NCBI GenBank assembly: GCA_046317855.1
Contig: JBKCVM010000147.1
Location: 3,956-67,955 of the forward strand
DNA: 64,000 bases
DNA from: Oligoflexia bacterium
GTDB lineage: Bacteria > Bdellovibrionota > UBA1018
Reading direction: 5' to 3'
The translations under genes were made by a program, and so were the position numbers. Each line of letters opens with the position of its first letter. Within the stretch, counting starts at the first letter, position 1. A model generated the notes under the pieces. The model worked only from the letters and a program-made list of their open reading frames with translations, made no database searches and was not told the origin of the DNA. Positions 44,625 through 54,332 of this stretch are shown piece after piece.

Positions 44625-45848
44625 TCAGAGAGGTCTCAGGGCTTGAAAATCGAACTCTGTGGTCACCATGAAGTGATCGGAGGGGTCGGTTTTGCGTCTG
44701 CGAAAGCTCTGAGGAACGGGCTTGGGTTTTCCGTGTGTATCGAGATACGGGATGATTTGGGCTTGCTTGATCCATTCGGTTGAATTTGGGCCTCCCGAGA
44801 CCAAGATCGCATCCAGCTGCAAGAAGACGGGGGCCTCTTCTGCTGGAAAATAAGTGTGAGTGATCCGCTCTTCGATCGGGACGCTTTTAGTCTGAGGAGC
44901 GAGATCAAAAGTGTCTTTTAATTTAGCCAGTTCTCGAAGGGGTTGAAAAGCTGCTGCGTTACGAACGTCGTCATTAAAATCAGCTGCAAAGAATATTGGA
45001 ACTTGGTCTCCAAACTGATGACGATAGTGGGCAATCACTTGGGCTGCAGTGAGGGCTTCTTGCGCGCGGATTGCTGCAGTGTCCTGGCCTGCGCTGTCTA
45101 GCCGTTTAGATTTAAAGTGGGAGCCGGCCACTAAGAAGCGTGGAGGATCGCTCGGCTTTGAGCCAATTTCTCGGATGATAGCAACTGCGAGGTCTCTAGA
45201 AAAAACAGTTCTTTCTAGGGATGGATCTAGGGATGGATGCGCGATATTTCTAAAGCTTTGGATTTCAATTTCGAACGGGAGATCTTTTTTAAAGAGAAAA
45301 CCGACCTGAATGAACGGGTCGTTTCCCTCGATGACGGCCGGAACGTATTTTCCGTTCAAGTGATGGAGGTTGAGGTGATCTAAGAGCGCATGGCTTTCGA
45401 CCTCTTGAATGACGAGAATGTCTGGATTGGCCCGAAGAATCGTAGAAGCGATTCTTTGAACGTCGTGAAGAGGTTTGGCAATTTGCCCATCCGGAGCGCC
45501 TGCAGAAAACGAGAGTGCCTCGGTGCCCGGATCTCGGAGTAGACGTTCTTTTGCTGCTGGACTCACGAGATTGTGAACGTTGTACTGGCCCAATGTCAGG
45601 GTTGAAATACTGCGATTTGGGCCCAGCGACAGAGTGACTCTGGGACCCCAGTCTGGCAAGCGATTAGGTTTTTTGAGGCCGGCGATGGGTTCACTGAGCC
45701 CTGGCGCAAGGGGGTGTTTGGGTGTGGCCACAAAGGCCAGAAGCATCTTTGGGCAGTTGGGCCCGCCCGCTAGAGTCAGGTTAGGGGCCAAGAGCGACAG
45801 GGCCGCTGCTTTGAGAAGAGCTATAGAATAGCCTTTAAGACCAAGCAC
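44625..45848 (-). CDS. Secreted EEP-family hydrolase (nuclease/phosphatase-like, 407 aa)
   Basis: Signal peptide; EEP motifs TLGQYNVHNL, ILVIQEVE, and a C-terminal DHF catalytic-His region. Confidence 0.6.
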   Translation of the reverse strand: MLGLKGYSIALLKAAALSLLAPNLTLAGGPNCPKMLLAFVATPKHPLAPGLSEPIAGLKKPNRLPDWGPRVTLSLGPNRSISTLTLGQYNVHNLVSPAAKERLLRDPGTEALSFSAGAPDGQIAKPLHDVQRIASTILRANPDILVIQEVESHALLDHLNLHHLNGKYVPAVIEGNDPFIQVGFLFKKDLPFEIEIQSFRNIAHPSLDPSLERTVFSRDLAVAIIREIGSKPSDPPRFLVAGSHFKSKRLDSAGQDTAAIRAQEALTAAQVIAHYRHQFGDQVPIFFAADFNDDVRNAAAFQPLRELAKLKDTFDLAPQTKSVPIEERITHTYFPAEEAPVFLQLDAILVSGGPNSTEWIKQAQIIPYLDTHGKPKPVPQSFRRRKTDPSDHFMVTTEFDFQALRPL

Positions 45849-45920
45849 TTGAAACCCCTCACCTCGAATTCTTGGCAGAACTTCCCAGTTTCTGCCCGAT
45901 TCGATACACTGAAGGGAGGT

Positions 45921-46586
45921 ATGAAGTCGAGCCGGGACTATCGCGGCTATCGCGACTATAAAGATGCTCTTTTGGAACGTCTCCTGCGCATTCCGAGGTT
46001 CAATTTTTTGGAAAACGCCGGCGGTTTTAGCTTGATAGAGCTCATGGTCAGCGTGGCAGTGATTGGGGTACTGGCCGCCGTTGCCGTCCCTAAGTTCCAG
46101 AATTTTCAGCGTAAAGCTAAGGCCGTCGAAGCCAAGATTCAGCTTGGGGCGGCCTTTCGGTCTGAGAAGATTTTTTTTACCTCCTCGGGGCAGTACTCAG
46201 TTTGCTTGGCTGAACTGGGGTTTTCTCCGGGGTCAGGTCGTCGCAGATTTACTGTAGGCTTTATGCCGAGCGGCAATTTTGACTCCTTTAAGGGAGGCTT
46301 GACCTGCACGCAAGGCGAGGGGGCTACTTTTTTTCAGCCGCTGGGGGGGCCTGCGCCTTCGTTGATGACTTGGACGGATATTAATGCATCGGGCTTTAGG
46401 ATTGGGGCTCTTGGAAATCTGGACTTGGCCTCCCTCGGGCTCTTTAACACTGCTTGGGCACAGGAAATGGGTTCTGCTGGCCAATCGTCGGGACCGATTG
46501 ATGGCTTTCAAGTAGACCAAGAGGGTAGCATCACCGAGGTTAGTGAGGCGTTGATAAGAGGTCCTTTACAGGGTGCATCCTTCTAG
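45921..46586 (+). CDS. Type IV pilin-like protein with unusually long charged leader
   Basis: ...ENAGG|FSLIELMVSVAVIGVLAAVAVP canonical prepilin motif (G at -1, E at +5). The leader MKSSRDYRGYRDYKDALLERLLRIPRFNFLENAGG is 35 aa long when counted from the ATG at 45921 through the cleavage-site Gly. GGGAGG lies immediately before the ATG. The ORF-track TTG at 45849 would abut the divergent gene. Confidence 0.5.
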   Translation: MKSSRDYRGYRDYKDALLERLLRIPRFNFLENAGGFSLIELMVSVAVIGVLAAVAVPKFQNFQRKAKAVEAKIQLGAAFRSEKIFFTSSGQYSVCLAELGFSPGSGRRRFTVGFMPSGNFDSFKGGLTCTQGEGATFFQPLGGPAPSLMTWTDINASGFRIGALGNLDLASLGLFNTAWAQEMGSAGQSSGPIDGFQVDQEGSITEVSEALIRGPLQGASF

Positions 46587-46619: not shown

Positions 46620-47831
46620 ATGTCTGCAGGCTTGCTCTCGCACCTCCAAGATTGGCTAAGTTTGTCTCTGCGCTGGGTTCACCTGGTGGCCGGTATTTCG
46701 TGGATCGGAAGTTCGTTTTACTTTATGTGGCTGGATGCCAGCCTCGAGCCGCCTGAGGCCACCGATACTGAAGCTCAAAAACGGGTCGAAGGTCAGCTTT
46801 GGATGGTCCACAGCGGTGGCTTTTATCAGGTTCAGAAAAGAAAAATTCGTCCGGGCGAAATGCCCAAGACCCTGCACTGGTTCAAGTGGGAGGCCATGTT
46901 CACGGTCCTCACGGGTCTGGCCCTACTAGTGAACCTCTACTACCTTACGGGCGGAGTTTATCTGCTCGACTCGAACGTCTCGAGCATCTCACTTGGTGCA
47001 GCGTCTGCACTGGGGCTCGGGATTCTGGCGGTCTCGTGGTTTGCTTATGACGCTCTCTGGAATTCTAACTTTGCCCAATCCCGCTCGGGTCTTGCGACCA
47101 CACTTTGCTACGTGGCGCTTGTGGCGATGGTCATAGGCCTCTGCAAGACTCTGAGCGGCAGAGCGGCATTCATCCATGTGGGCGCGGTGATGGGCACAAT
47201 CATGGTGCTCAACGTCTGGGTGCGCATTCTCCCCGCGCAGCAGAAGATGATTGATGCAACGGCCGAGGGCAAGATCCCTGATTATGGCCATGGTCTGGCT
47301 GCCAAGCGCCGCTCCGTTCACAATAGCTACATGACCTTTCCTGTGCTCTTTGTGATGCTGAGTAACCACTACTCTATGACTTTTGGTCATGCGCAAAACT
47401 GGCTCATATTGCTCCTGCTTATTTTTGCAGGTGCGGCGATCCGTCACGTGATGATCGGAAAATCGGCAAACGCCAGGTGGGCCGCGCTTCCGGCTGCAGC
47501 AGCCCTTCTTGGGGTGATCGGGATGACTGCGCCCGCTGGGGCATTGCAATCAGCAGAGCTCGGTGAGCCTATAGCGTATTCTGAGGTCCATTCTATTATT
47601 GAGCGGCGTTGTACTCAGTGCCACTCGTCGCAGCCGACAGATGATGTATTCAAGGTAGCTCCCAATGGCGTGATGTTTGATGCACCAGAAAAAGTAAAAG
47701 CAATGGCTGAAAAAATTCAGTTTCGTGTGGTGATCACCAAGACCATGCCTATGAATAACAAGACAGGCATCACTGATGATGAGCGAGAGGTTCTCTCAAA
47801 ATGGATCAGGCAGGGGGCTAAACTTCAGTGA
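46620..47831 (+). CDS. puuD: Urate hydroxylase PuuD (membrane cytochrome-c type)
   Basis: N-terminus LRWVHLVAGISWIGSSFYFMWLD typical of PuuD; multiple TM helices; C-terminal CTQCHS heme-binding site. Confidence 0.7.
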   Translation: MSAGLLSHLQDWLSLSLRWVHLVAGISWIGSSFYFMWLDASLEPPEATDTEAQKRVEGQLWMVHSGGFYQVQKRKIRPGEMPKTLHWFKWEAMFTVLTGLALLVNLYYLTGGVYLLDSNVSSISLGAASALGLGILAVSWFAYDALWNSNFAQSRSGLATTLCYVALVAMVIGLCKTLSGRAAFIHVGAVMGTIMVLNVWVRILPAQQKMIDATAEGKIPDYGHGLAAKRRSVHNSYMTFPVLFVMLSNHYSMTFGHAQNWLILLLLIFAGAAIRHVMIGKSANARWAALPAAAALLGVIGMTAPAGALQSAELGEPIAYSEVHSIIERRCTQCHSSQPTDDVFKVAPNGVMFDAPEKVKAMAEKIQFRVVITKTMPMNNKTGITDDEREVLSKWIRQGAKLQ

Positions 47832-49195
47832 GTCTTTTAGCGGAAAAAAATCATTTCTGGGTCCGCGGCTCACAAGTAGTGCTGCCGTTTTCAAGCGCTC
47901 CAAAGCCGGCAGCTTTTGAGGTCCGAGACGGAAAAATAATTCAAGTGCTTGCCTCTGACACTTCGGTCCCAGATCAGAGTCTGCCTGTCCTGAGTATCAA
48001 GCGCGCGCTGGTGCTGCCGGGTCTTGTCGATACTCATGCCCACATCAATGAGCCGGGGCGCACTGAGTGGGAAGGATTTGAAACCGCGACTCGTGCTGCA
48101 GCAGCTGGCGGAATTACAACCGTGATTGATATGCCGCTGAATTCAATTCCGGCAACCACTTCTCTAGCAGCACTCGAGGCAAAGGCGGCTGCGGCTGTGG
48201 GCAAGTGCCAGATTGATTATGGATTTTGGGGAGGAGTGGTTCCAGGCAATGCGTCTGAGCTGGAGCCCATGGTTCGTGCAGGGGTTTTTGGGTTTAAGTG
48301 TTTTTTGTGTCCCTCGGGTGTGGATGAGTTTGAGCATGTCGTTGAGAAAGACCTCACAGTAGCGATGCCGATCCTTGCACGGCTGGGGGTTCCGCTTCTT
48401 GTTCATGCCGAGATCGAATCACCCGTCATGCAGTCCAAGAAAGATCCACGGACCTATCGAAGCTTTTTGGAATCCCGGCCCCAAAAGTGGGAGGTCGATG
48501 CGATTCGTATGATGATCAAGCTGGCGCGACAAACCGGTTGTCGAACTCACATCGTGCACCTTTCGGCATCGGATGCCCTGGCGGATCTGGCTGAGGCGCG
48601 GCGGGCCGGAGTTCCAATCACTGCTGAAACTTGCCCTCATTATCTTGCGTTCAGTGCCGAAGAAATTCAGGACGGTGCCACCCACTTTAAGTGCTGTCCT
48701 CCGATTCGTGAGGCCTCGAATCGTGAAGAACTTTGGAAGGGGCTCACCCGTCGTGACATTGAGTTCGTGGTCTCGGATCACTCGCCGTGCACACCCTCGC
48801 TCAAGCTGAGTGAAACCGGAGATTTTGCAAAAGCCTGGGGTGGAATTTCGGGGCTTCAGTTTGGCCTTCCGGTTGTTTGGACTGAGCTTAGGTCACGCGG
48901 TTTTTCTGCTGGTGATCTGGCTCAGTGGATGAGTTCGCGCACCGCAGCCTTTTTAGGACTGGGTAGGCGCAAAGGTGCGATTGCCCCGGGTATGGACGCC
49001 GACTTCGTGGTCTTTGATCCGGAGGCAGAAAGCTCGATTGATGAAACCCAGGTGCTGCATCGCCACAAGCTCACGCCGTATTCAGGCCGTCAGGTGCAAG
49101 GCAGGGTGCTCCAGACTTTTCTGGGTGGGGTGGAGATCCTGCCCGGGAGCGCTCCTCGGGGGCAGCAGCTTAAGTTTGAAAGGCAGGACAAATGA
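47828..49195 (+). CDS. allB: Allantoinase (cyclic amidohydrolase)
   Basis: DTHAHINEPGRTEWEGFETATRAAAAGGITTVIDMP metal-binding His pair and the DHSP/HxH blocks of allantoinase/dihydropyrimidinase-type amidohydrolases; 4-bp overlap with the upstream gene. Confidence 0.7.
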   Translation: MSLLAEKNHFWVRGSQVVLPFSSAPKPAAFEVRDGKIIQVLASDTSVPDQSLPVLSIKRALVLPGLVDTHAHINEPGRTEWEGFETATRAAAAGGITTVIDMPLNSIPATTSLAALEAKAAAAVGKCQIDYGFWGGVVPGNASELEPMVRAGVFGFKCFLCPSGVDEFEHVVEKDLTVAMPILARLGVPLLVHAEIESPVMQSKKDPRTYRSFLESRPQKWEVDAIRMMIKLARQTGCRTHIVHLSASDALADLAEARRAGVPITAETCPHYLAFSAEEIQDGATHFKCCPPIREASNREELWKGLTRRDIEFVVSDHSPCTPSLKLSETGDFAKAWGGISGLQFGLPVVWTELRSRGFSAGDLAQWMSSRTAAFLGLGRRKGAIAPGMDADFVVFDPEAESSIDETQVLHRHKLTPYSGRQVQGRVLQTFLGGVEILPGSAPRGQQLKFERQDK

Positions 49196-50247
49196 ACGCG
49201 ACCGTATCGGCGGCCCCGCAGGGCAGTCACCAGCATTTTTTCGTCCCATTTACCGAGCTTTTGGATCTTGCGTCTGAAAAAGTGGGTGGAAAGGCGCTCT
49301 ACGCCAACGATGATTTTTTTGCCCCGAAAGAGAATTTACTCAAAGCCGAGCCGCCAGTTTTTATTGCGGACAAATACACCGAGTTTGGAAAGTGGATGGA
49401 CGGCTGGGAGAGCCGTCGCAAACGCAACATCGGCCCTGGAAATGATCGCGATACGTGCATTATCCGATTGGGTATCGCTGGGAGCATCAGCGGTTTGGAT
49501 GTCGACACTTCTTTTTTCACTGGCAACTACCCAGAATACTGCTCGATTGACGCGATAGAGTGTGTTTTGGACGAGCAGGCGCTTGATGCCGGTGCAAAGT
49601 GGATTTCTTTGGTGAGCAAGTCCAAGCTTCAGGGCGGCAGCCACAATTTTTTTTCCGTCAATGACGGTCGACGGTTCACGCATCTGAGGCTCACGATTTT
49701 TCCGGATGGGGGAGTGGCGAGGTTGCGAGTGCATGGGCGTCCTGCGGTGGATTTCAAGACCGCTGGGCAGTTGGACCTGGCTGCCGCAGCAAACGGCGGT
49801 AGCGTCGTGTCATGTAACGATAGTTTCTTTGGTCCCAAGGATAATCTGATCCTCCCAGGGCGTGCTCGGAACATGGGCGAAGGGTGGGAAACCCGCCGTA
49901 AGCGCGGTCCCGGAAACGACTGGATCATCGTGAGGCTTGCCACATCAGGTCGGATTCAAAAAATTGAGGTGGATACCAACCACTTCAAAGGGAACTTTCC
50001 GGAGTCCTGCTCCGTGGACGCTTGCTGGGTTGAGGGAGAACCCTTGCTGCCTGCGGACTTTAGAGATCGGAAGGACATTCAGTGGGTTGAGGTGCTTTCG
50101 CGCACCCAGCTTCAGGCTCACCATCAGCACTTTTTTGAAAAGGAGCTCTCAGCGGCGGCAGGTTCTGGAAAGTTTAATTATGTCAGACTCAACATCTACC
50201 CGGATGGGGGTGTGAGTCGCCTCAGAGTTTATGGAGTGCGGGCGTGA
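49192..50247 (+). CDS. alc: Allantoicase (two allantoicase repeats)
   Basis: Two internal repeats, each with DDFFAPKENLL / DSFFGPKDNLI and GWETRR motifs. Confidence 0.8.
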   Translation: MNATVSAAPQGSHQHFFVPFTELLDLASEKVGGKALYANDDFFAPKENLLKAEPPVFIADKYTEFGKWMDGWESRRKRNIGPGNDRDTCIIRLGIAGSISGLDVDTSFFTGNYPEYCSIDAIECVLDEQALDAGAKWISLVSKSKLQGGSHNFFSVNDGRRFTHLRLTIFPDGGVARLRVHGRPAVDFKTAGQLDLAAAANGGSVVSCNDSFFGPKDNLILPGRARNMGEGWETRRKRGPGNDWIIVRLATSGRIQKIEVDTNHFKGNFPESCSVDACWVEGEPLLPADFRDRKDIQWVEVLSRTQLQAHHQHFFEKELSAAAGSGKFNYVRLNIYPDGGVSRLRVYGVRA

Positions 50248-50750
50248 CGCTTGATGAGTTCAATCGTCTCTCTGAGAGGGAGGCCGTTGAGGGCCTGATG
50301 CTGTGTTGTGGTTCCAAAGCTTGGTCAGAACAAATGGCGCGTCGCAGGCCGTTCCGTGTCATCGACGCGCTATTTGAAGCGGCCGACCAGGTTTGGTTCT
50401 CTCTTTCAAAATCTGATTGGCTCGATGCTTTTTCACATCATCCTCGCATTGGTGAAACACAGTTGCGCCAAAAGTTTGCTGCTACGGCTGCATGGGCCTC
50501 ACAAGAACAACAGGGAACTGCCAACGCTTCTGAAAACATTTTGAAAGCGCTTGCTGTTGGAAATGCTGAGTATGAAAAGCAGTTTGGGCATGTGTTTTTG
50601 ATCTGCGCGACCGGTAAATCTGCAGAAGAAATGCTTTTAGCCTTGGACCAGCGCATGAATAACGGGCCTGAGCGCGAGCTCAAAATTGCGGCGGGAGAGC
50701 AGGCCCGCATCACTCAGCTCAGGCTCAAGAAATGGTTGGGAGTCCAATGA
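50244..50750 (+). CDS. uraD: OHCU decarboxylase
   Basis: 168 aa; FSHHPRIGE signature. Confidence 0.8.
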   Translation: MTLDEFNRLSEREAVEGLMLCCGSKAWSEQMARRRPFRVIDALFEAADQVWFSLSKSDWLDAFSHHPRIGETQLRQKFAATAAWASQEQQGTANASENILKALAVGNAEYEKQFGHVFLICATGKSAEEMLLALDQRMNNGPERELKIAAGEQARITQLRLKKWLGVQ

Positions 50751-51103
50751 TGAATCCACGAAGTCCAATCACCACTCATGTCCTTGATTTAAGCTTGGGT
50801 CAGGCGGCTCAGGGAGTTCCTGTGCAGCTCGAACGTTCGGACGGAAAAGGGGGTTGGATGGTCCTCAAGTCGGCCACAACTAACTCGGACGGGCGGGTTG
50901 AAGATCTCATGGCACGCGGCTCTCGGGCCCAGGCGGGCGTCTATCGGCTAACCTTTAACATTCAGGCCTATTTTTTGGAGCGCGGAGTGGCCACGTTTTA
51001 TCCTGAAGCTGCGATTGTTTTTGAAATCACTCAGCCCGCTGAACACCACCACGTACCTTTGCTTCTCAGTCCATTTGGCTATTCGACTTACCGAGGGACC
51101 TAA
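50747..51103 (+). CDS. uraH: 5-hydroxyisourate hydrolase (transthyretin-like)
   Basis: THVLD N-terminal motif and C-terminal YRGT tetrapeptide (YRGS-type signature); ATGA overlap with uraD. Confidence 0.85.
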   Translation: MMNPRSPITTHVLDLSLGQAAQGVPVQLERSDGKGGWMVLKSATTNSDGRVEDLMARGSRAQAGVYRLTFNIQAYFLERGVATFYPEAAIVFEITQPAEHHHVPLLLSPFGYSTYRGT

Positions 51104-51105
51104 AA

Positions 51106-52464
51106 ATGACGATTCAACTCTCACTAGACACTGCAGCTCTCGAGGCCATTCGAGTCCCTTTGCGTGCAGCCAATCAACAATTTGCTCTGCAAAATCCCGG
51201 GCCTTGGCAGGGAAGGCAGCCCGCGCACACAGTATACGGTGGGGCCCAGCTCTTTAGGGCAGATACCGCTCGTAAGATGGGCGAGACTGCGTTGCGGTCA
51301 CTGGAGGAGTACGCGCCCAGTTCAGACCGTTTAGCCGCAGCATTGGGGCAGAATTCTTCTGATCTTTGGAAAACGGTTTATGGGCGAGTGGTTTCGAAGC
51401 TTAAGCGAGAGGCGGTCGAGGACTTTCGAATCGACTTCGAGGACGGATACGGCACGCGGCCAGATGCTGAAGAAGATGCAGACGCCGCACGCACGGCAGG
51501 CGAAGTGGCGCAGGGAATCAAGGACGGAACACTGCCGCCTTTCATCGGAATTCGCGTCAAGCCATTCAGTGAAGAGTGCGTGCCGCGTGCGGTGCGGACG
51601 TTGGATATCTTTCTAACCACGCTTTTTTCTAAGACCGGCGGGCGCTTGCCATCTGGCTTTGTGGTGACTTTGCCCAAGATCACCCATGTGGCGCAGGCCG
51701 AGGCCCTGGCCTCCTGCCTCGATGCTATCGAAAAAAAGTGCGGCGTGGCCGCGGGCACGATCCAGTTTGAGATCATGGTCGAGATGACCCAGGCTATCAT
51801 CGGGGCGGATGGGGTGGTGCCTTTGAGGGCGTTCGTGGCGGCGGGCCGCGGTAGGTGCATCGGAGCCCATTTTGGTACCTACGATTACACTGCAGGCTGC
51901 GGCATCACCGCGACCTACCAGTACATGGCAAACCCGGTCTGTGATTTTGCAAAGCACGTGATGCAGGTGTCGCTTGCCGGAACTTCCGTTATGCTCTCCG
52001 ACGGAGCCACCAACATCATGCCTGTGGGTCCGCACCGCGCACCCCAGGGTGGAACCCTCTCCGCCCAGCAAAAGGCTGAAAATGAGCAGGTCGTCCACCG
52101 GGCTTGGAAGCTTAGCTTTGATCATATCCTGCATTCCTTAGAGACGGGCTATTATCAGGGATGGGACCTTCACCCAGCGCAACTTCCGATTCGTTATGCT
52201 GCTGTTTATTCTTTTTTCTTGGAGAGCCTTGAGCCCGCAAGCGCGCGCTTGAAGGCCTTTGTTGAAAAAGCCGCAAAGGCAACGCTTTTGGGCGATGTGT
52301 TCGACGACGCGGCGACGGGACAGGGGCTGCTCAATTACTTTTTGCGTGGAATCGCCTGCGGCGCGATCACCGAGGAAGAGGCTCGGGCTACCGGCCTCAC
52401 CCTCGATGAGATTCGTGGCCGATCCTTCATGAAGATCGTGCAGGGCAGGACGGCGGGCAAGTAG
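51106..52464 (+). CDS. Uncharacterised 452-aa enzyme, possibly of the HpcH/HpaI-aldolase / citrate-lyase-beta / malate-synthase-like TIM-barrel superfamily
   Basis: DFRIDFEDGYG resembles the D-x-E-D divalent-metal/substrate motif of that superfamily. Lies immediately after uraH in the same orientation. Assignment is weak. Confidence 0.3.
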   Translation: MTIQLSLDTAALEAIRVPLRAANQQFALQNPGPWQGRQPAHTVYGGAQLFRADTARKMGETALRSLEEYAPSSDRLAAALGQNSSDLWKTVYGRVVSKLKREAVEDFRIDFEDGYGTRPDAEEDADAARTAGEVAQGIKDGTLPPFIGIRVKPFSEECVPRAVRTLDIFLTTLFSKTGGRLPSGFVVTLPKITHVAQAEALASCLDAIEKKCGVAAGTIQFEIMVEMTQAIIGADGVVPLRAFVAAGRGRCIGAHFGTYDYTAGCGITATYQYMANPVCDFAKHVMQVSLAGTSVMLSDGATNIMPVGPHRAPQGGTLSAQQKAENEQVVHRAWKLSFDHILHSLETGYYQGWDLHPAQLPIRYAAVYSFFLESLEPASARLKAFVEKAAKATLLGDVFDDAATGQGLLNYFLRGIACGAITEEEARATGLTLDEIRGRSFMKIVQGRTAGK

Positions 52465-52465
52465 C

Positions 52466-53404
52466 TTAAAGAATTTTAGGTTCTCGGATGTACGCTAGAA
52501 ACAGCACCAATATGGCAGCAAAAAGCAGCCATGCCTTGAACGTTGTCCGGTTAGAAGGCATGAGTGCATGCCAGGAGCCAAAGAGTCGGTCTGGACTTGC
52601 GCCCTCGATCCAAGCGCCCAGCTTGGCTGAAAAATCAGTTAGCTCTTCTGAACTTTGCTCCTGCGCTCGAGCGGGATCGGCTCTTGAGGGATCGCCCCAG
52701 TAACCCCATCGCCGATTACGCCAGCGCTCAAGCATTCGAGAGATGCGCGAGCCCGTAAGCGGAAATGCAGGAGGAAGCGGCTCACGAGGCGCGCGCGCCG
52801 TATCTTGATAGAGCCACATTGCAACTCCAGTGTCTCGCTCTCCCCCGTGTTGCGAAGGATCCACGCCCAGGGCAGAGGTCCAAATATCTGAAGGTTTGGA
52901 CCCTCCCGAGCGCCCGGAGACAAGCGAGGGGGGGCCGTATTGCGAACTTTTCAAGAATTCAAAGAGTCGCATTCGCGCCCTCTTTGCCCTGCGCGAGAGG
53001 ATTCGACCAGCCTCCTCTATGGCTACTAGTGAACGAGGGCTCTGAGTGCCTGAAAAGCACACTAAAAAACGAAATCCCTGTCTTAGCCAGGTCGAGCCTA
53101 CGTCGACCAAGTAGTCTTTAAGAACATAGCCGCGTACGCCAAAGGCCCAAGCCCGCGTATTGGGATCGACCCCCAGAGGTGAGCGCGGGGCAATCACTCC
53201 AACCCAGCCTTTGCGCTCGTCCTCGAGCCGCTCAGCAGCCAATCGACACAGTACTTCGGCTTCATCCAAGTCTAATCCCACGGGCAAATGGGGTCCGTGG
53301 TCTTCGATCACACCCACCGGAAAAAACACGACCGTTGTTCCGCGTGGAAGGGCTTCGATCTCGTCAGCCGTCATGCGCTCAAGCCATCGCGGCATCGACT
53401 CCAC
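52466..53404 (-). CDS. Creatininase-family amidohydrolase with C-terminal membrane anchor
   Basis: VVFFPVGVIEDHGPHLPVGLD matches the creatininase-family metal-binding block (PvGs.EQHGpHLP..tD); C-terminal hydrophobic helix. Confidence 0.55.
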   Translation of the reverse strand: MESMPRWLERMTADEIEALPRGTTVVFFPVGVIEDHGPHLPVGLDLDEAEVLCRLAAERLEDERKGWVGVIAPRSPLGVDPNTRAWAFGVRGYVLKDYLVDVGSTWLRQGFRFLVCFSGTQSPRSLVAIEEAGRILSRRAKRARMRLFEFLKSSQYGPPSLVSGRSGGSKPSDIWTSALGVDPSQHGGERDTGVAMWLYQDTARAPREPLPPAFPLTGSRISRMLERWRNRRWGYWGDPSRADPARAQEQSSEELTDFSAKLGAWIEGASPDRLFGSWHALMPSNRTTFKAWLLFAAILVLFLAYIREPKIL

Positions 53405-54332
53405 CCAGCAAAAGTTTCAGTGCGTTTCCGCCCAAGATCTTGTCTGCGTCATCTTGTGAGTAGACTCCGCCAGTGACGCCTTCTTCGATTCGCTTTTTTC
53501 CGACCGCGAGATTGCCCCCCACAAACGGCCAGTCGGTGCCAAAGAGCACTCGGTCTGCGCCGAGTCTGCGAACTGCCTCACCGATGATCTCAGCAGGCTG
53601 CCACGAAGTGTCGACCAGGATGTTCGAGTGGAGCTCACCCAGTTGGAGTGCTTTCTCGGGCTCATGAAAATTCATGTGCGCTAGCACAAAGCGGATTCTT
53701 CGATAGGCCTCAAACCAAGGCTCAAAGATTTCTACTTTTCCGAGTGAAGGGTTCTTATAAAAAACTCTATTTTGAATGCAGCCCGTATGAAGAATGACCG
53801 GCAGACTCTTGGATTGGGCCACTTCAAGTAACTCTCGGTAACGCGGACTTTCAGGGCCTTCTCCATCTGCTGAAGCATGGATCTTGAGTCCGCGAGCGCC
53901 CTTGTCAATCAAGTCCTCGAGCAGCTGACCTGGTTTTTCTGTTCCTGGAGGGACATTCATCACAGGGATGAGTCGGTCCGAGCTTTGAGAACAAGTTTCG
54001 AGTACCCACTCGTTTGATGCAAAGGGGGGATGCGCAATTACGACGGCGCGGTCGACCCCTGAGGCGTCCATCGCTTCGATCAAATCCGCGGGAGTCGACT
54101 CAATGAGGAGCCGGGGCAGGGTGCTCAGGCCGCCCATTTGATCGAGTCCTGCACGAGCAAGTTTGGGCAAGAGCCGCATCCATACTTGAGCTTGATGCAT
54201 TTTTTCTTGGGTGGGCTCGAGGAGATGGCGAACCGTTCGACGCGCTTGTTCGATCATGGGGGCAAGAGAGCCCGGCAAGACCTTCTCCATCGGATTTGGA
54301 AAGACATGCACATGAAAATCGATCGTGGACAT
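53379..54332 (-). CDS. Amidohydrolase-2 family TIM-barrel metal-dependent hydrolase
   Basis: MSTIDFHVHVFP N-terminal HxH and ACMSD-like layout; overlaps the downstream creatininase gene by 26 bp. Confidence 0.55.
   Translation of the reverse strand: MSTIDFHVHVFPNPMEKVLPGSLAPMIEQARRTVRHLLEPTQEKMHQAQVWMRLLPKLARAGLDQMGGLSTLPRLLIESTPADLIEAMDASGVDRAVVIAHPPFASNEWVLETCSQSSDRLIPVMNVPPGTEKPGQLLEDLIDKGARGLKIHASADGEGPESPRYRELLEVAQSKSLPVILHTGCIQNRVFYKNPSLGKVEIFEPWFEAYRRIRFVLAHMNFHEPEKALQLGELHSNILVDTSWQPAEIIGEAVRRLGADRVLFGTDWPFVGGNLAVGKKRIEEGVTGGVYSQDDADKILGGNALKLLLGGVDAAMA

What the first reader, a model, noticed from the sequence alone, without database searches (positions are those of the whole stretch)
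51106..52464. Orphan 452-aa enzyme closing the ureide cluster: candidate novel glyoxylate/ureidoglycolate-processing step
The ORF starts 3 bp after uraH, so it is probably co-transcribed. It has no obvious match to known purine-catabolic enzymes (it is not AllA, UGHY, AAH, Gcl, GlxR or AllD by size or motifs). The DFRIDFEDGYG segment resembles the D-x-E-D metal/substrate motif of HpcH/HpaI aldolases, CitE/malyl-CoA lyases and malate synthases. A malate-synthase-like condensation of glyoxylate would complete carbon assimilation from urate. At 452 aa it fits none of these families cleanly.
Basis: inference. Interest (0 to 1): 0.5.

Follow-up and report, generated by a model that had tools for sequence, protein, structure and literature searches.

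The report
Likely bacterial ureidoglycolate lyase, malate-synthase fold
The last gene of this urate-breakdown operon belongs to a large uncharacterised family (DUF6986) with a malate-synthase-like fold, and it most likely performs the one pathway step for which these bacteria have no known gene: splitting ureidoglycolate into glyoxylate and urea.

Summary
The ORF is real: 51106-52464, 452 aa, 2 bp after uraH. It ends a tightly packed six-gene operon, puuD-allB-alc-uraD-uraH-X. It is not an orphan. It matches Pfam DUF6986 over its full length (E 1e-180), and about 2,400 clusters at 50% identity match it across the database (642 at E<=1e-30).

Gene context is the strongest evidence. In 80 genomes from many bacterial lineages, 50 have uraH and 39 have allantoicase within 10 kb. 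Actinobacterial homologues sit beside allantoicase, PuuE allantoinase, ureidoglycine aminohydrolase or urease. The classical ureidoglycolate lyase AllA is absent from all 167 such neighbourhoods, yet it directly follows alc in 4 of 5 proteobacterial clusters.

A malate-synthase-like protein is already proven to be the animal ureidoglycolate lyase (PNAS 2023).

Best reading: a bacterial, non-AllA ureidoglycolate lyase (about 0.6). Rival: a small malate synthase or malyl-CoA lyase acting on glyoxylate (about 0.2).

The parts
46620..47831 (+). puuD-type (membrane) urate hydroxylase, first gene of the operon
   Evidence: Pfam PF06181 Urate_ox_N, E 4e-104. Found in the same position in relatives.
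47828..49195 (+). allB, allantoinase
   Evidence: NCBIfam TIGR03178 equivalog, 553.9 bits against a cut-off of 357.85. Pfam Amidohydro_1.
49192..50247 (+). alc, allantoicase (produces (S)-ureidoglycolate + urea)
   Evidence: NCBIfam TIGR02961 equivalog, 419.5 bits against a cut-off of 277.9. Pfam PF03561.
50244..50750 (+). uraD, OHCU decarboxylase
   Evidence: TIGR03180, 177.6 bits against 139.4. PF09349.
50732..51103 (+). uraH, 5-hydroxyisourate hydrolase
   Evidence: TIGR02962, 136.3 bits against 87.45. PF00576.
51093..51098 (+). GAGGGA ribosome-binding-site-like hexamer inside the end of uraH, 7 nt before the ATG
   Evidence: Read directly from the sequence. Function inferred.
51106..52464 (+). 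DUF6986 protein, 452 aa: candidate Mg2+-dependent (S)-ureidoglycolate lyase with malate-synthase/CitE fold
51421..51453 (+). DFRIDFEDGYG (residues 106-116): D110 is the predicted partner of the catalytic Arg; E112/D113 are the predicted second-shell ligands of Mg2+-bound waters
   Evidence: D110, F111, E112, D113 and G116 are >=97% conserved. Aligned to AceB D117-F-E-D120 in global hhalign. Roles taken from MCL Asp42/Glu44/Asp45 (PMC3832036).
51553..51555 (+). Arg150 (GIRVK): predicted catalytic/substrate-binding arginine after barrel strand 2
   Evidence: >=97% conserved. Aligned to AceB R166 in global hhalign. Strand 146-150 in the model. The role is inferred.
51781..51783 (+). Glu226 (MVEMT): predicted Mg2+ ligand
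   Evidence: Aligned to AceB E250, MSG E427 and MCL E141. >=97% conserved.
51883..51885 (+). Asp260 (HFGTYDYTA): predicted Mg2+ ligand
   Evidence: Aligned to AceB D278, MSG D455 and MCL D168. >=97% conserved.
52162..52176 (+). W353-D-L-H-P357 after barrel strand 8, the 'W-x-x-H-P' motif shared with CitE and malate synthase
   Evidence: Aligned with 3r4i 'WSIHP', 5ugr 'WAIHP' and AceB W365-IAHP. D354 is >=97% conserved; W353, H356 and P357 are 90-97% conserved.
52300..52317 (+). F399-D-D-A-A-T404, in a loop between two long C-terminal helices: candidate lid acid/base, resembling malate synthase A M445-E-D447-A-A-T
   Evidence: D400/D401 are 90-97% and A403 >=97% conserved. Lies at a helix-loop-helix junction of lower pLDDT. 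The equivalence to AceB D447 is by eye only; hhalign did not establish it.

Best explanation
The gene encodes a stand-alone TIM-barrel enzyme of the malate-synthase/CitE-like superfamily (Pfam DUF6986). It most likely serves as the ureidoglycolate lyase (EC 4.3.2.3) of this urate-to-glyoxylate operon, replacing the unrelated AllA enzyme. The proposed mechanism is inferred by analogy with malyl-CoA lyase and malate synthase. The carboxylate and C2-hydroxyl of (S)-ureidoglycolate, the product of the allantoicase encoded three genes upstream, chelate a Mg2+ ion held by Glu226 and Asp260. The second shell would be Glu112/Asp113. Arg150, oriented by Asp110, polarises and deprotonates the C2-OH. The C2-N bond then breaks in the same way that the C2-C3 bond of malyl-CoA breaks. 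The leaving ureido nitrogen is protonated by a lid carboxylate, candidate Asp400/Asp401. The products are glyoxylate and the second urea. Shown here: the ORF, the operon, family membership, the fold, conservation of the metal/Arg site, the gene-context association, and the complementarity with AllA. Inferred: the substrate, the reaction and the residue roles.
Against: No biochemical data exist for any family member (0 papers mention DUF6986). Every characterised prokaryotic member of the malate-synthase/CitE clade uses a CoA or ACP thioester. DUF6986 appears to keep the full catalytic set, possibly including the lid Asp, so acetyl-CoA chemistry is not excluded. In Gordonia and Williamsia a hotdog (4HBT/PaaI) thioesterase gene abuts or overlaps the DUF6986 start, which hints at a CoA-ester product. 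A malate synthase inside an allantoin cluster has precedent (yeast DAL7 and Streptomyces aceB1, from my own knowledge). About 30 of the 80 genome loci show no ureide genes within 10 kb. Some loci have DUF6986 with uraD/uraH but no alc nearby, for example L011 and L014. Whole-genome absence of AllA could not be tested. The AllA HMM was built from gammaproteobacterial sequences only.
Confidence: 0.6

Rival explanations
1. DUF6986 is a compact malate synthase or malyl-CoA lyase. It condenses the glyoxylate released at the end of purine breakdown with acetyl-CoA, giving malate or malyl-CoA, so that the toxic aldehyde is detoxified and its carbon assimilated. Ureidoglycolate would be cleaved spontaneously, by allantoicase, or by an enzyme encoded elsewhere.
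Against: This reading leaves the ureidoglycolate step without a gene in many lineages, although AllA normally sits next to alc. It does not explain the direct linkage to urease or to ureidoglycolate-forming enzymes. No isocitrate lyase, glycolate oxidase or other glyoxylate-cycle context was seen in 80 loci. Gordonia p174 already carries malate synthase G. The scores are below the Pfam and NCBIfam cut-offs for these families.
Confidence: 0.2
2. DUF6986 is bifunctional. It cleaves ureidoglycolate and, without releasing glyoxylate, condenses it with acetyl-CoA to malyl-CoA or malate. One protein would then supply both steps missing from the cluster.
For: The clusters lack both a ureidoglycolate lyase and any glyoxylate-consuming enzyme. 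Unlike the eukaryotic enzyme, the family seems to retain the whole malate-synthase catalytic set. The Gordonia and Williamsia operon thioesterase-DUF6986-urease provides one partner for each product.
Against: This is purely inferential. There is no precedent: zebrafish ureidoglycolate lyase has no malate synthase activity, and Nematostella malate synthase has no lyase activity. The thioesterase linkage is seen in only one family-level clade, so it counts as a single evolutionary observation.
Confidence: 0.08
3. DUF6986 is a CoA-independent class-II aldolase/lyase acting on another 2-hydroxy or 2-oxo acid of the pathway. Examples are glyoxylate plus pyruvate giving 4-hydroxy-2-oxoglutarate, or urea elimination from allantoate in clusters that lack alc.
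For: There is a weak HpcH_HpaI hit. Some clusters pair DUF6986 only with an allantoinase and a permease, or have uraD/uraH without alc (L011, L014, L034, L039).
Confidence: 0.07

Closest known systems
Eukaryotic ureidoglycolate lyase UGL / 'malate synthase-like' (Danio rerio MSL; Dembech et al., PNAS 2023, PMC10120013)
   Same: It has a malate-synthase-type TIM barrel and is genomically or evolutionarily tied to allantoicase and uricase. It catalyses (S)-ureidoglycolate -> glyoxylate + urea and keeps the glyoxylate-binding site. It is the best functional analogue of what is proposed here.
   Different: It belongs to the malate synthase A orthogroup (about 560 aa) and is found only in eukaryotes. 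It is metal-independent and has a degenerated acetyl-CoA site with W365M and R276I substitutions. DUF6986 is a separate Pfam family of about 450 aa from bacteria. It keeps both Mg2+ ligands and the Trp (W353), and has T258 at the R276 position. A shared function would be an independent recruitment.
Malate synthases A, G and haloarchaeal H (PF01274; 3cux, 1n8i, 3oyx)
   Different: Identity is only 11-14%. The PF01274 score of 18.5 is below the 26.4 cut-off. The N- and C-terminal domains differ. No CoA site could be verified. The gene context is ureide catabolism, not the glyoxylate shunt.
CitE-like enzymes: malyl-CoA lyase, CLYBL, citrate lyase beta (PF03328; 4l7z, 5ugr, 5vxc, 1sgj)
   Different: These enzymes are about 300-340 aa and form trimers or hexamers, with the lid Asp donated by the neighbouring subunit, and their substrates are CoA or ACP thioesters. 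DUF6986 has about 100 extra residues at each end and scores below the family cut-offs (23.8 against 25).
AllA ureidoglycolate lyase (PF04115, cupin-like, about 160 aa)
   Same: It has the same proposed reaction and the same place in purine-catabolic operons, immediately downstream of alc in Pseudomonas, Moraxella, Vibrio and Caballeronia.
   Different: There is no sequence or fold relationship. The two are never found together in any of the neighbourhoods examined.

Membership tests
Pfam DUF6986 (PF22484) | Full-length match to the family HMM above the gathering score | tested here: met
   601.1 bits against a cut-off of 27; residues 20-444 match profile positions 2-408 of 408.
Malate synthase / CitE-like superfamily (as defined in PMC3832036) | beta8/alpha8 TIM barrel structurally closest to malate synthases, malyl-CoA lyases and CitE | tested here: met
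   [not shown]
Malate synthase / CitE-like superfamily | Absolutely conserved Glu and Asp that coordinate Mg2+ | tested here: met
   E226 and D260 align with MCL E141/D168, AceB E250/D278 and MSG E427/D455. Both are >=97% conserved in 118 family representatives.
Malate synthase / CitE-like superfamily | Asp-x-Glu-Asp after strand 1 (Asp holds the Arg; Glu/Asp hold the Mg2+ waters) | tested here: met
   D110-F-E112-D113 are >=97% conserved and colinear with AceB D117-F-E-D120.
Malate synthase / CitE-like superfamily | Conserved catalytic Arg after strand 2 | tested here: met
   R150 is >=97% conserved and lies at the end of predicted strand 146-150. It aligns to AceB R166 in a global profile alignment of low overall significance.
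Malate synthase / CitE-like superfamily | Catalytic Asp on the C-terminal lid | tested here: inconclusive
   D400/D401 in FDDAAT are 90-97% conserved and resemble AceB MED447AAT. hhalign did not pair them, and no model coordinates were available for superposition.
Malate synthase / CitE-like superfamily | Acyl-CoA (or ACP) thioester binding tunnel | not testable with these tools
   CoA is held mainly by backbone atoms and non-conserved basic residues, so sequence cannot decide. No docking or coordinates were available.
Malate synthase (PF01274) / HpcH-HpaI-CitE (PF03328) as curated families | Score above the Pfam or NCBIfam gathering cut-off | tested here: not met
   PF01274: 18.5 against 26.4. 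PF03328: 23.8 against 25. Malyl-CoA lyase NF041626: 20.6 against 500. CitE TIGR01588: 14.2 against 443.
AllA-type ureidoglycolate lyase (PF04115) | Sequence similarity to AllA | tested here: not met
   No Pfam or NCBIfam hit. E. coli AllA tblastn and the AllA HMM find nothing in the window.
Eukaryotic MS-like ureidoglycolate lyase (UGL group of PMC10120013) | Member of the malate synthase A orthogroup with W365M and R276I substitutions and a degenerate acetyl-CoA site | tested here: not met
   It is not a PF01274 member. W353 is retained and T258 stands at the R276 position. The UGL group is reported to be eukaryote-only. No direct comparison with the zebrafish sequence was possible.
Ureidoglycolate lyase as a functional class (EC 4.3.2.3) | Catalyses (S)-ureidoglycolate -> glyoxylate + urea | not testable with these tools
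   This requires an enzyme assay. Only indirect evidence is available.
Ureidoglycolate lyase as a functional class (EC 4.3.2.3) | Encoded with allantoicase and other ureide genes, and mutually exclusive with the known isofunctional enzyme | tested here: met
   Context. AllA is found in 0 of 167 DUF6986 or Alc neighbourhoods, against 4 of 5 proteobacterial alc loci, which have no DUF6986. Whole-genome exclusivity was not tested.

The most novel reading that the evidence does not exclude
DUF6986 is a new kind of bifunctional enzyme. It cleaves ureidoglycolate to urea and, on the same Mg2+ site, condenses the nascent glyoxylate with acetyl-CoA to malyl-CoA or malate. Purine nitrogen release and carbon salvage would be coupled, and free glyoxylate would never be released. 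This would explain three things: why the clusters lack both a ureidoglycolate lyase and any glyoxylate-consuming enzyme; why the full malate-synthase catalytic set is retained; and why Gordonia and Williamsia flank the gene with a thioesterase on one side and urease on the other.
Probability: 0.08. Interest if true: 0.8.

Novelty: new variant of a known kind. Interest (0 to 1): 0.6.

Why it matters
If the prediction holds, a very widespread domain of unknown function gets a specific role. About 2,400 clusters at 50% identity match it, from Acidobacteriota, Bacteroidota, Bdellovibrionota, Myxococcota, Verrucomicrobiota, Actinomycetota and others. That role is the missing last step of purine and ureide nitrogen recycling in soil and freshwater bacteria, where metabolic reconstructions currently show a gap. 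It would be a third solution for ureidoglycolate lyase, after AllA and the eukaryotic malate-synthase-derived enzyme. It would also be a second, independent case of the malate-synthase/CitE active site being re-used for C-N rather than C-C cleavage. In addition it would correct the database names now attached to these proteins ('citrate lyase beta subunit', 'aldolase', 'phosphoenolpyruvate kinase'). The test is a simple in-vitro assay.

Tried and rejected
1. Literature. 'DUF6986' returned 0 papers. 'phosphoenolpyruvate kinase' plus allantoicase returned 0. Ureidoglycolate combined with citrate lyase, HpcH, CitE or malyl-CoA lyase returned nothing relevant to bacteria.
2. Sequence search of the PDB gave only marginal hits (3r4i at E 0.007; 5ugr at 0.018), so the fold assignment needed the AF2 model.
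3. Profile-profile alignment to E. coli AceB and GlcB was significant only for the strand 3-5 core. The forced global alignment is colinear for the N-terminal and strand-8 motifs. It did not pair the FDDAAT motif with the catalytic MEDAAT, so I do not claim that equivalence.
5. The Foldseek afdb50 library was unavailable.
6. Neighbours of DUF6986 in loci without ureide genes (Bdellovibrio, Corallococcus, Ignavibacteria, a gammaproteobacterial MAG, Pyrinomonadaceae) were unrelated housekeeping genes and gave no alternative context. The Melainabacteria locus L014 has allB-uraD-uraH-DUF6986 but nothing recognisable that replaces alc.
7. The downstream convergent genes in the window (creatininase family, Amidohydro_2) never accompany DUF6986 elsewhere (0 of 80), so I rejected them as parts of the system.
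8. I tried to use large mislabelled 'plasmid' records (Nonomuraea 11.9 Mb, Nocardia 2.7 Mb) as whole genomes to check for AllA. This was inconclusive, because the hit list names only the top organisms.
9. Regulatory or transport roles are rejected on the basis of the fold.
Full report
OBSERVATION. The ORF is exactly as described. It runs from the ATG at 51106 to a stop ending at 52464 and encodes 452 aa. The uraH stop codon TAA is at 51101-51103. Two bases separate it from the ATG, and a GAGGGA hexamer lies 7 nt upstream. The five preceding genes overlap or abut one another. They are a PuuD-type urate hydroxylase, allantoinase AllB, allantoicase, OHCU decarboxylase and HIU hydrolase. All five have Pfam matches, and the last four also score above their NCBIfam equivalog cut-offs. 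The gene after the ORF is convergent: a creatininase-family gene at 52466-53404 on the minus strand. The ORF therefore closes a six-gene operon. The DFRIDFEDGYG segment is at residues 106-116.

NOT AN ORPHAN. The protein matches Pfam DUF6986 (PF22484) over its whole length at E 1.2e-180. It has only sub-threshold hits to HpcH_HpaI (23.8 bits against a cut-off of 25) and to the malate-synthase TIM barrel (18.5 against 26.4). NCBIfam gives only faint malyl-CoA-lyase and CitE hits. More than 8,000 database proteins match at E<=1e-5, and the listed best matches are 54-100% identical. Their database names are 'citrate lyase beta subunit', 'aldolase' or 'phosphoenolpyruvate kinase'. An exhaustive phmmer scan of 1.84 billion 50%-identity representatives finds 2,399 clusters at E<=1e-3 and 642 at E<=1e-30. 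The 150 best are nearly all of at most about 490 aa (the shorter ones look like fragments), one is 532 aa, and no domain fusion is evident. No paper in the searchable library mentions DUF6986.

FOLD AND ACTIVE SITE. An AlphaFold2 model built from 23 homologues has mean pLDDT 84.7 and pTM 0.82. It shows eight barrel strands flanked by N- and C-terminal helical regions.

Profile alignments place E226 (MVEMT) and D260 (HFGTYDY) on the Mg2+ ligands of malyl-CoA lyase, malate synthase A (E250/D278) and malate synthase G (E427/D455). The probability is 93% with a deeper profile. A forced global alignment to AceB is colinear for four further features: D110-F-E-D113 with D117-F-E-D120, R150 with R166, K191 with K215, and W353-x-x-H-P with W365-x-x-H-P.

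According to Zarzycki & Kerfeld (PMC3832036), exactly these residues define the CitE-like and malate-synthase superfamily: the metal Glu and Asp, the Glu-Asp pair holding the metal waters, the Asp that orients the Arg, the Arg itself, and a lid Asp. In 118 diverse family representatives, D110, E112, D113, R150, K191, E226, D260, D299, D354, R363 and R381 are >=97% conserved. W353, H356, P357, D400 and D401 are 90-97% conserved. Actinobacterial homologues at 35-47% identity keep the same set.

A conserved F-D-D/E-A/P-A-T motif (399-404) sits at a helix-loop-helix junction. It looks like the M-E-D447-A-A-T of malate synthase A that carries the catalytic base. No alignment tool confirmed this pairing, so I treat it as a lead only.

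GENE CONTEXT. I fetched 80 loci from different species in the genome collection. They come from Acidobacteriota, Bacteroidota, Bdellovibrionota, delta-proteobacterial MAGs, Myxococcota, Verrucomicrobiota, Melainabacteria, Ignavibacteria/Chlorobi, Elusimicrobia, Planctomycetia and Balneolales. tblastn with the window's own proteins finds uraH within 10 kb in 50 loci, uraD in 45, alc in 39, allB in 38 and puuD in 31.

Clustering all neighbouring ORFs shows which families recur. They are the ureide genes, cofactor-free uricase, xdhA/B/C and guanine deaminase, plus a lineage-specific M49-like peptidase in Pyrinomonadaceae. The typical order is puuD/uricase-allB-alc-uraD-uraH-DUF6986. The closest relatives (86% and 67% identity) carry the identical six-gene unit between unrelated flanking genes, so the gene belongs to the unit.

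I also approached from the other side. Among 80 metagenomic loci chosen for encoding allantoicase, 27 contain DUF6986, and many of the remaining contigs are only 2-5 kb long.

Actinobacterial homologues repeat the pattern with different partners:
- Rhodococcus erythropolis has DUF6986-alc-puuE, with allantoin racemase, an NCS1 permease and a GntR regulator nearby.
- Nocardia farcinica has DUF6986-alc, with uraD and uraH upstream.
- Tsukamurella has xdhABC-guaD-DUF6986, overlapping a gene that passes the (S)-ureidoglycine aminohydrolase equivalog.
- R. opacus and Paenarthrobacter have it beside PuuE and an NCS1 permease.
- A Mycobacterium has an aminotransferase gene overlapping its start, beside racemase, permease and GntR genes.
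- Gordonia and Williamsia have 4HBT thioesterase-DUF6986-ureABCFGD.
- One metagenomic locus has ureC-DUF6986 next to alc.

Loci without ureide genes showed no alternative coherent context.

THE MISSING STEP. The operon converts urate to (S)-ureidoglycolate plus urea and then stops. E. coli AllA, AllC, AllE, AllD, GlxR, GlxK and Hyi give no tblastn hit in the window or the 80 loci. I built an HMM from 86 AllA sequences. It gives no hit at E<=1 in any six-frame ORF of the window plus 86 DUF6986 loci, and none at E<=1e-3 in the 80 allantoicase loci.

As a positive control, the same HMM finds AllA immediately downstream of alc in Pseudomonas, Vibrio, Caballeronia and Moraxella records (E 1e-45 to 1e-71). 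RefSeq annotates these genes as ureidoglycolate lyase where the record is annotated. None of these loci contains DUF6986. In otherwise equivalent gene sets, therefore, DUF6986 and AllA replace one another. No malate synthase A or G is present in the window or in the 160 loci. Gordonia p174 carries a canonical malate synthase G 9 kb from its DUF6986 gene.

PRECEDENT. Dembech et al. (PNAS 2023, PMC10120013) showed that the 'malate synthase-like' protein of zebrafish and other eukaryotes co-evolves with allantoicase and uricase. They showed that it is the long-sought ureidoglycolate lyase. It converts (S)-ureidoglycolate to glyoxylate and urea with kcat/KM 2.7e4 M-1 s-1 and has no malate synthase activity. 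It keeps the glyoxylate site but not the acetyl-CoA site, and it is metal-independent. That group contains only eukaryotic sequences. The malate-synthase active site is thus demonstrably able to perform this C-N cleavage.

INTERPRETATION. The best-supported reading (about 0.6) is that DUF6986 is the bacterial, non-AllA ureidoglycolate lyase. The chemistry parallels malyl-CoA cleavage as described. The 2-hydroxy-carboxylate chelates Mg2+ (E226, D260, with E112/D113 via waters). R150, held by D110, takes the hydroxyl proton. The bond from C2 to the leaving group breaks, and a lid carboxylate (candidate D400/D401) protonates the leaving group, which here is the ureido nitrogen instead of an enolate carbon. 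This reading accounts for the pathway gap, the adjacency to ureidoglycolate-producing enzymes, the urease linkage and the exclusivity with AllA.

It is favoured by the fact that all characterised prokaryotic relatives use CoA esters, by the apparently complete catalytic set, and by the thioesterase neighbour in the Gordonia and Williamsia loci. It leaves the lyase step unassigned and does not explain the urease linkage. A bifunctional lyase/condensing enzyme (about 0.08) would reconcile both sets of clues and is the most novel reading that is not excluded. A CoA-independent aldolase, or activity on allantoate, remains possible (about 0.07).

LIMITS. There is no biochemistry. The AllA HMM is gammaproteobacterial. 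The CoA-binding question cannot be answered from sequence. The Gordonia and Williamsia synteny counts as one evolutionary observation.

VERDICT. This is a specific, testable functional prediction for a large DUF family, and it closes a gap in bacterial purine catabolism. It is a new variant of a known kind: a third, independently recruited ureidoglycolate lyase on a malate-synthase/CitE scaffold. It is not a categorically new system.

Noticed in passing
L087:8468-10155, L178:7561-9257, L179:7549-9248: In Gordonia and Williamsia a hotdog-fold (4HBT/PaaI-type) thioesterase gene abuts or overlaps the DUF6986 start, and the urease operon ureABCFGD follows directly. The thioesterase hints that this clade may handle a CoA ester. 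Nothing in the ureidoglycolate-lyase model explains it.
   Followed up: partly
L177:7838-10200: In Mycobacterium sp. BMJ-28 a class I/II aminotransferase gene overlaps the DUF6986 start by 4 bp, next to allantoin racemase, an NCS1 permease and a GntR regulator. It could convert the glyoxylate product to glycine.
   Followed up: no
window 52466-54332 (- strand): Two overlapping convergent genes lie here, a creatininase-family amidohydrolase (PF02633) and an Amidohydro_2 protein (PF04909). The stop of the first is 1 bp from the DUF6986 stop. Neither accompanies DUF6986 in any of the 80 genome loci, so they look unrelated. Their substrate is unknown.
   Followed up: partly
window 44625-46586: Upstream of the operon there is an endonuclease/exonuclease/phosphatase-family gene on the minus strand. 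A + strand ORF follows with a prepilin-type N-terminal methylation motif at residues 57-79, so its listed TTG start at 45849 is probably too far upstream. Only 33 nt separate it from puuD, so the operon promoter may lie further upstream.
   Followed up: no
L006, L010, L017, L018, L022, L028-L030, L033, L035, L036, L046, L051, L058, L075 (gene directly after DUF6986): In 15 Pyrinomonadaceae/Blastocatellia loci DUF6986 is followed by a ~558-aa HExxH protein with a weak Peptidase_M49 match. In L030 and L035 the ureide operon lies a few kb further on; in others it is not within 10 kb.
   Followed up: partly
L011 and L014 (Melainabacteria/Cyanobacteria MAGs), L034, L039, L080: These clusters have allB and/or uraD-uraH-DUF6986 (with puuD in some) but no allantoicase within 10 kb. 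Either alc is elsewhere, or DUF6986 may also act on allantoate in these lineages.
   Followed up: partly
L097, L104, L106, L128, L130, L135, L153: These are long metagenomic allantoicase loci, most with the full 8 kb fetched on both sides (L097 and L130 have about 2.5-3 kb downstream). They contain neither AllA nor DUF6986. The ureidoglycolate step there is encoded elsewhere or by yet another enzyme.
   Followed up: no
L042:7690-11496, L070:11496-15296: In two Verrucomicrobiota MAGs the gene after DUF6986 is a ~1,266-aa ORF that clusters with the xanthine dehydrogenase molybdopterin subunit. This is apparently a fusion of the small and large XDH subunits.
   Followed up: no
[not shown]
   Followed up: partly
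L085:10260-11081: The Tsukamurella neighbour passes both the (S)-ureidoglycine aminohydrolase equivalog and the NCBIfam 'bifunctional allantoicase/(S)-ureidoglycine aminohydrolase' exception model (NF040771). This suggests an allantoicase-free route to ureidoglycolate in that cluster.
   Followed up: no
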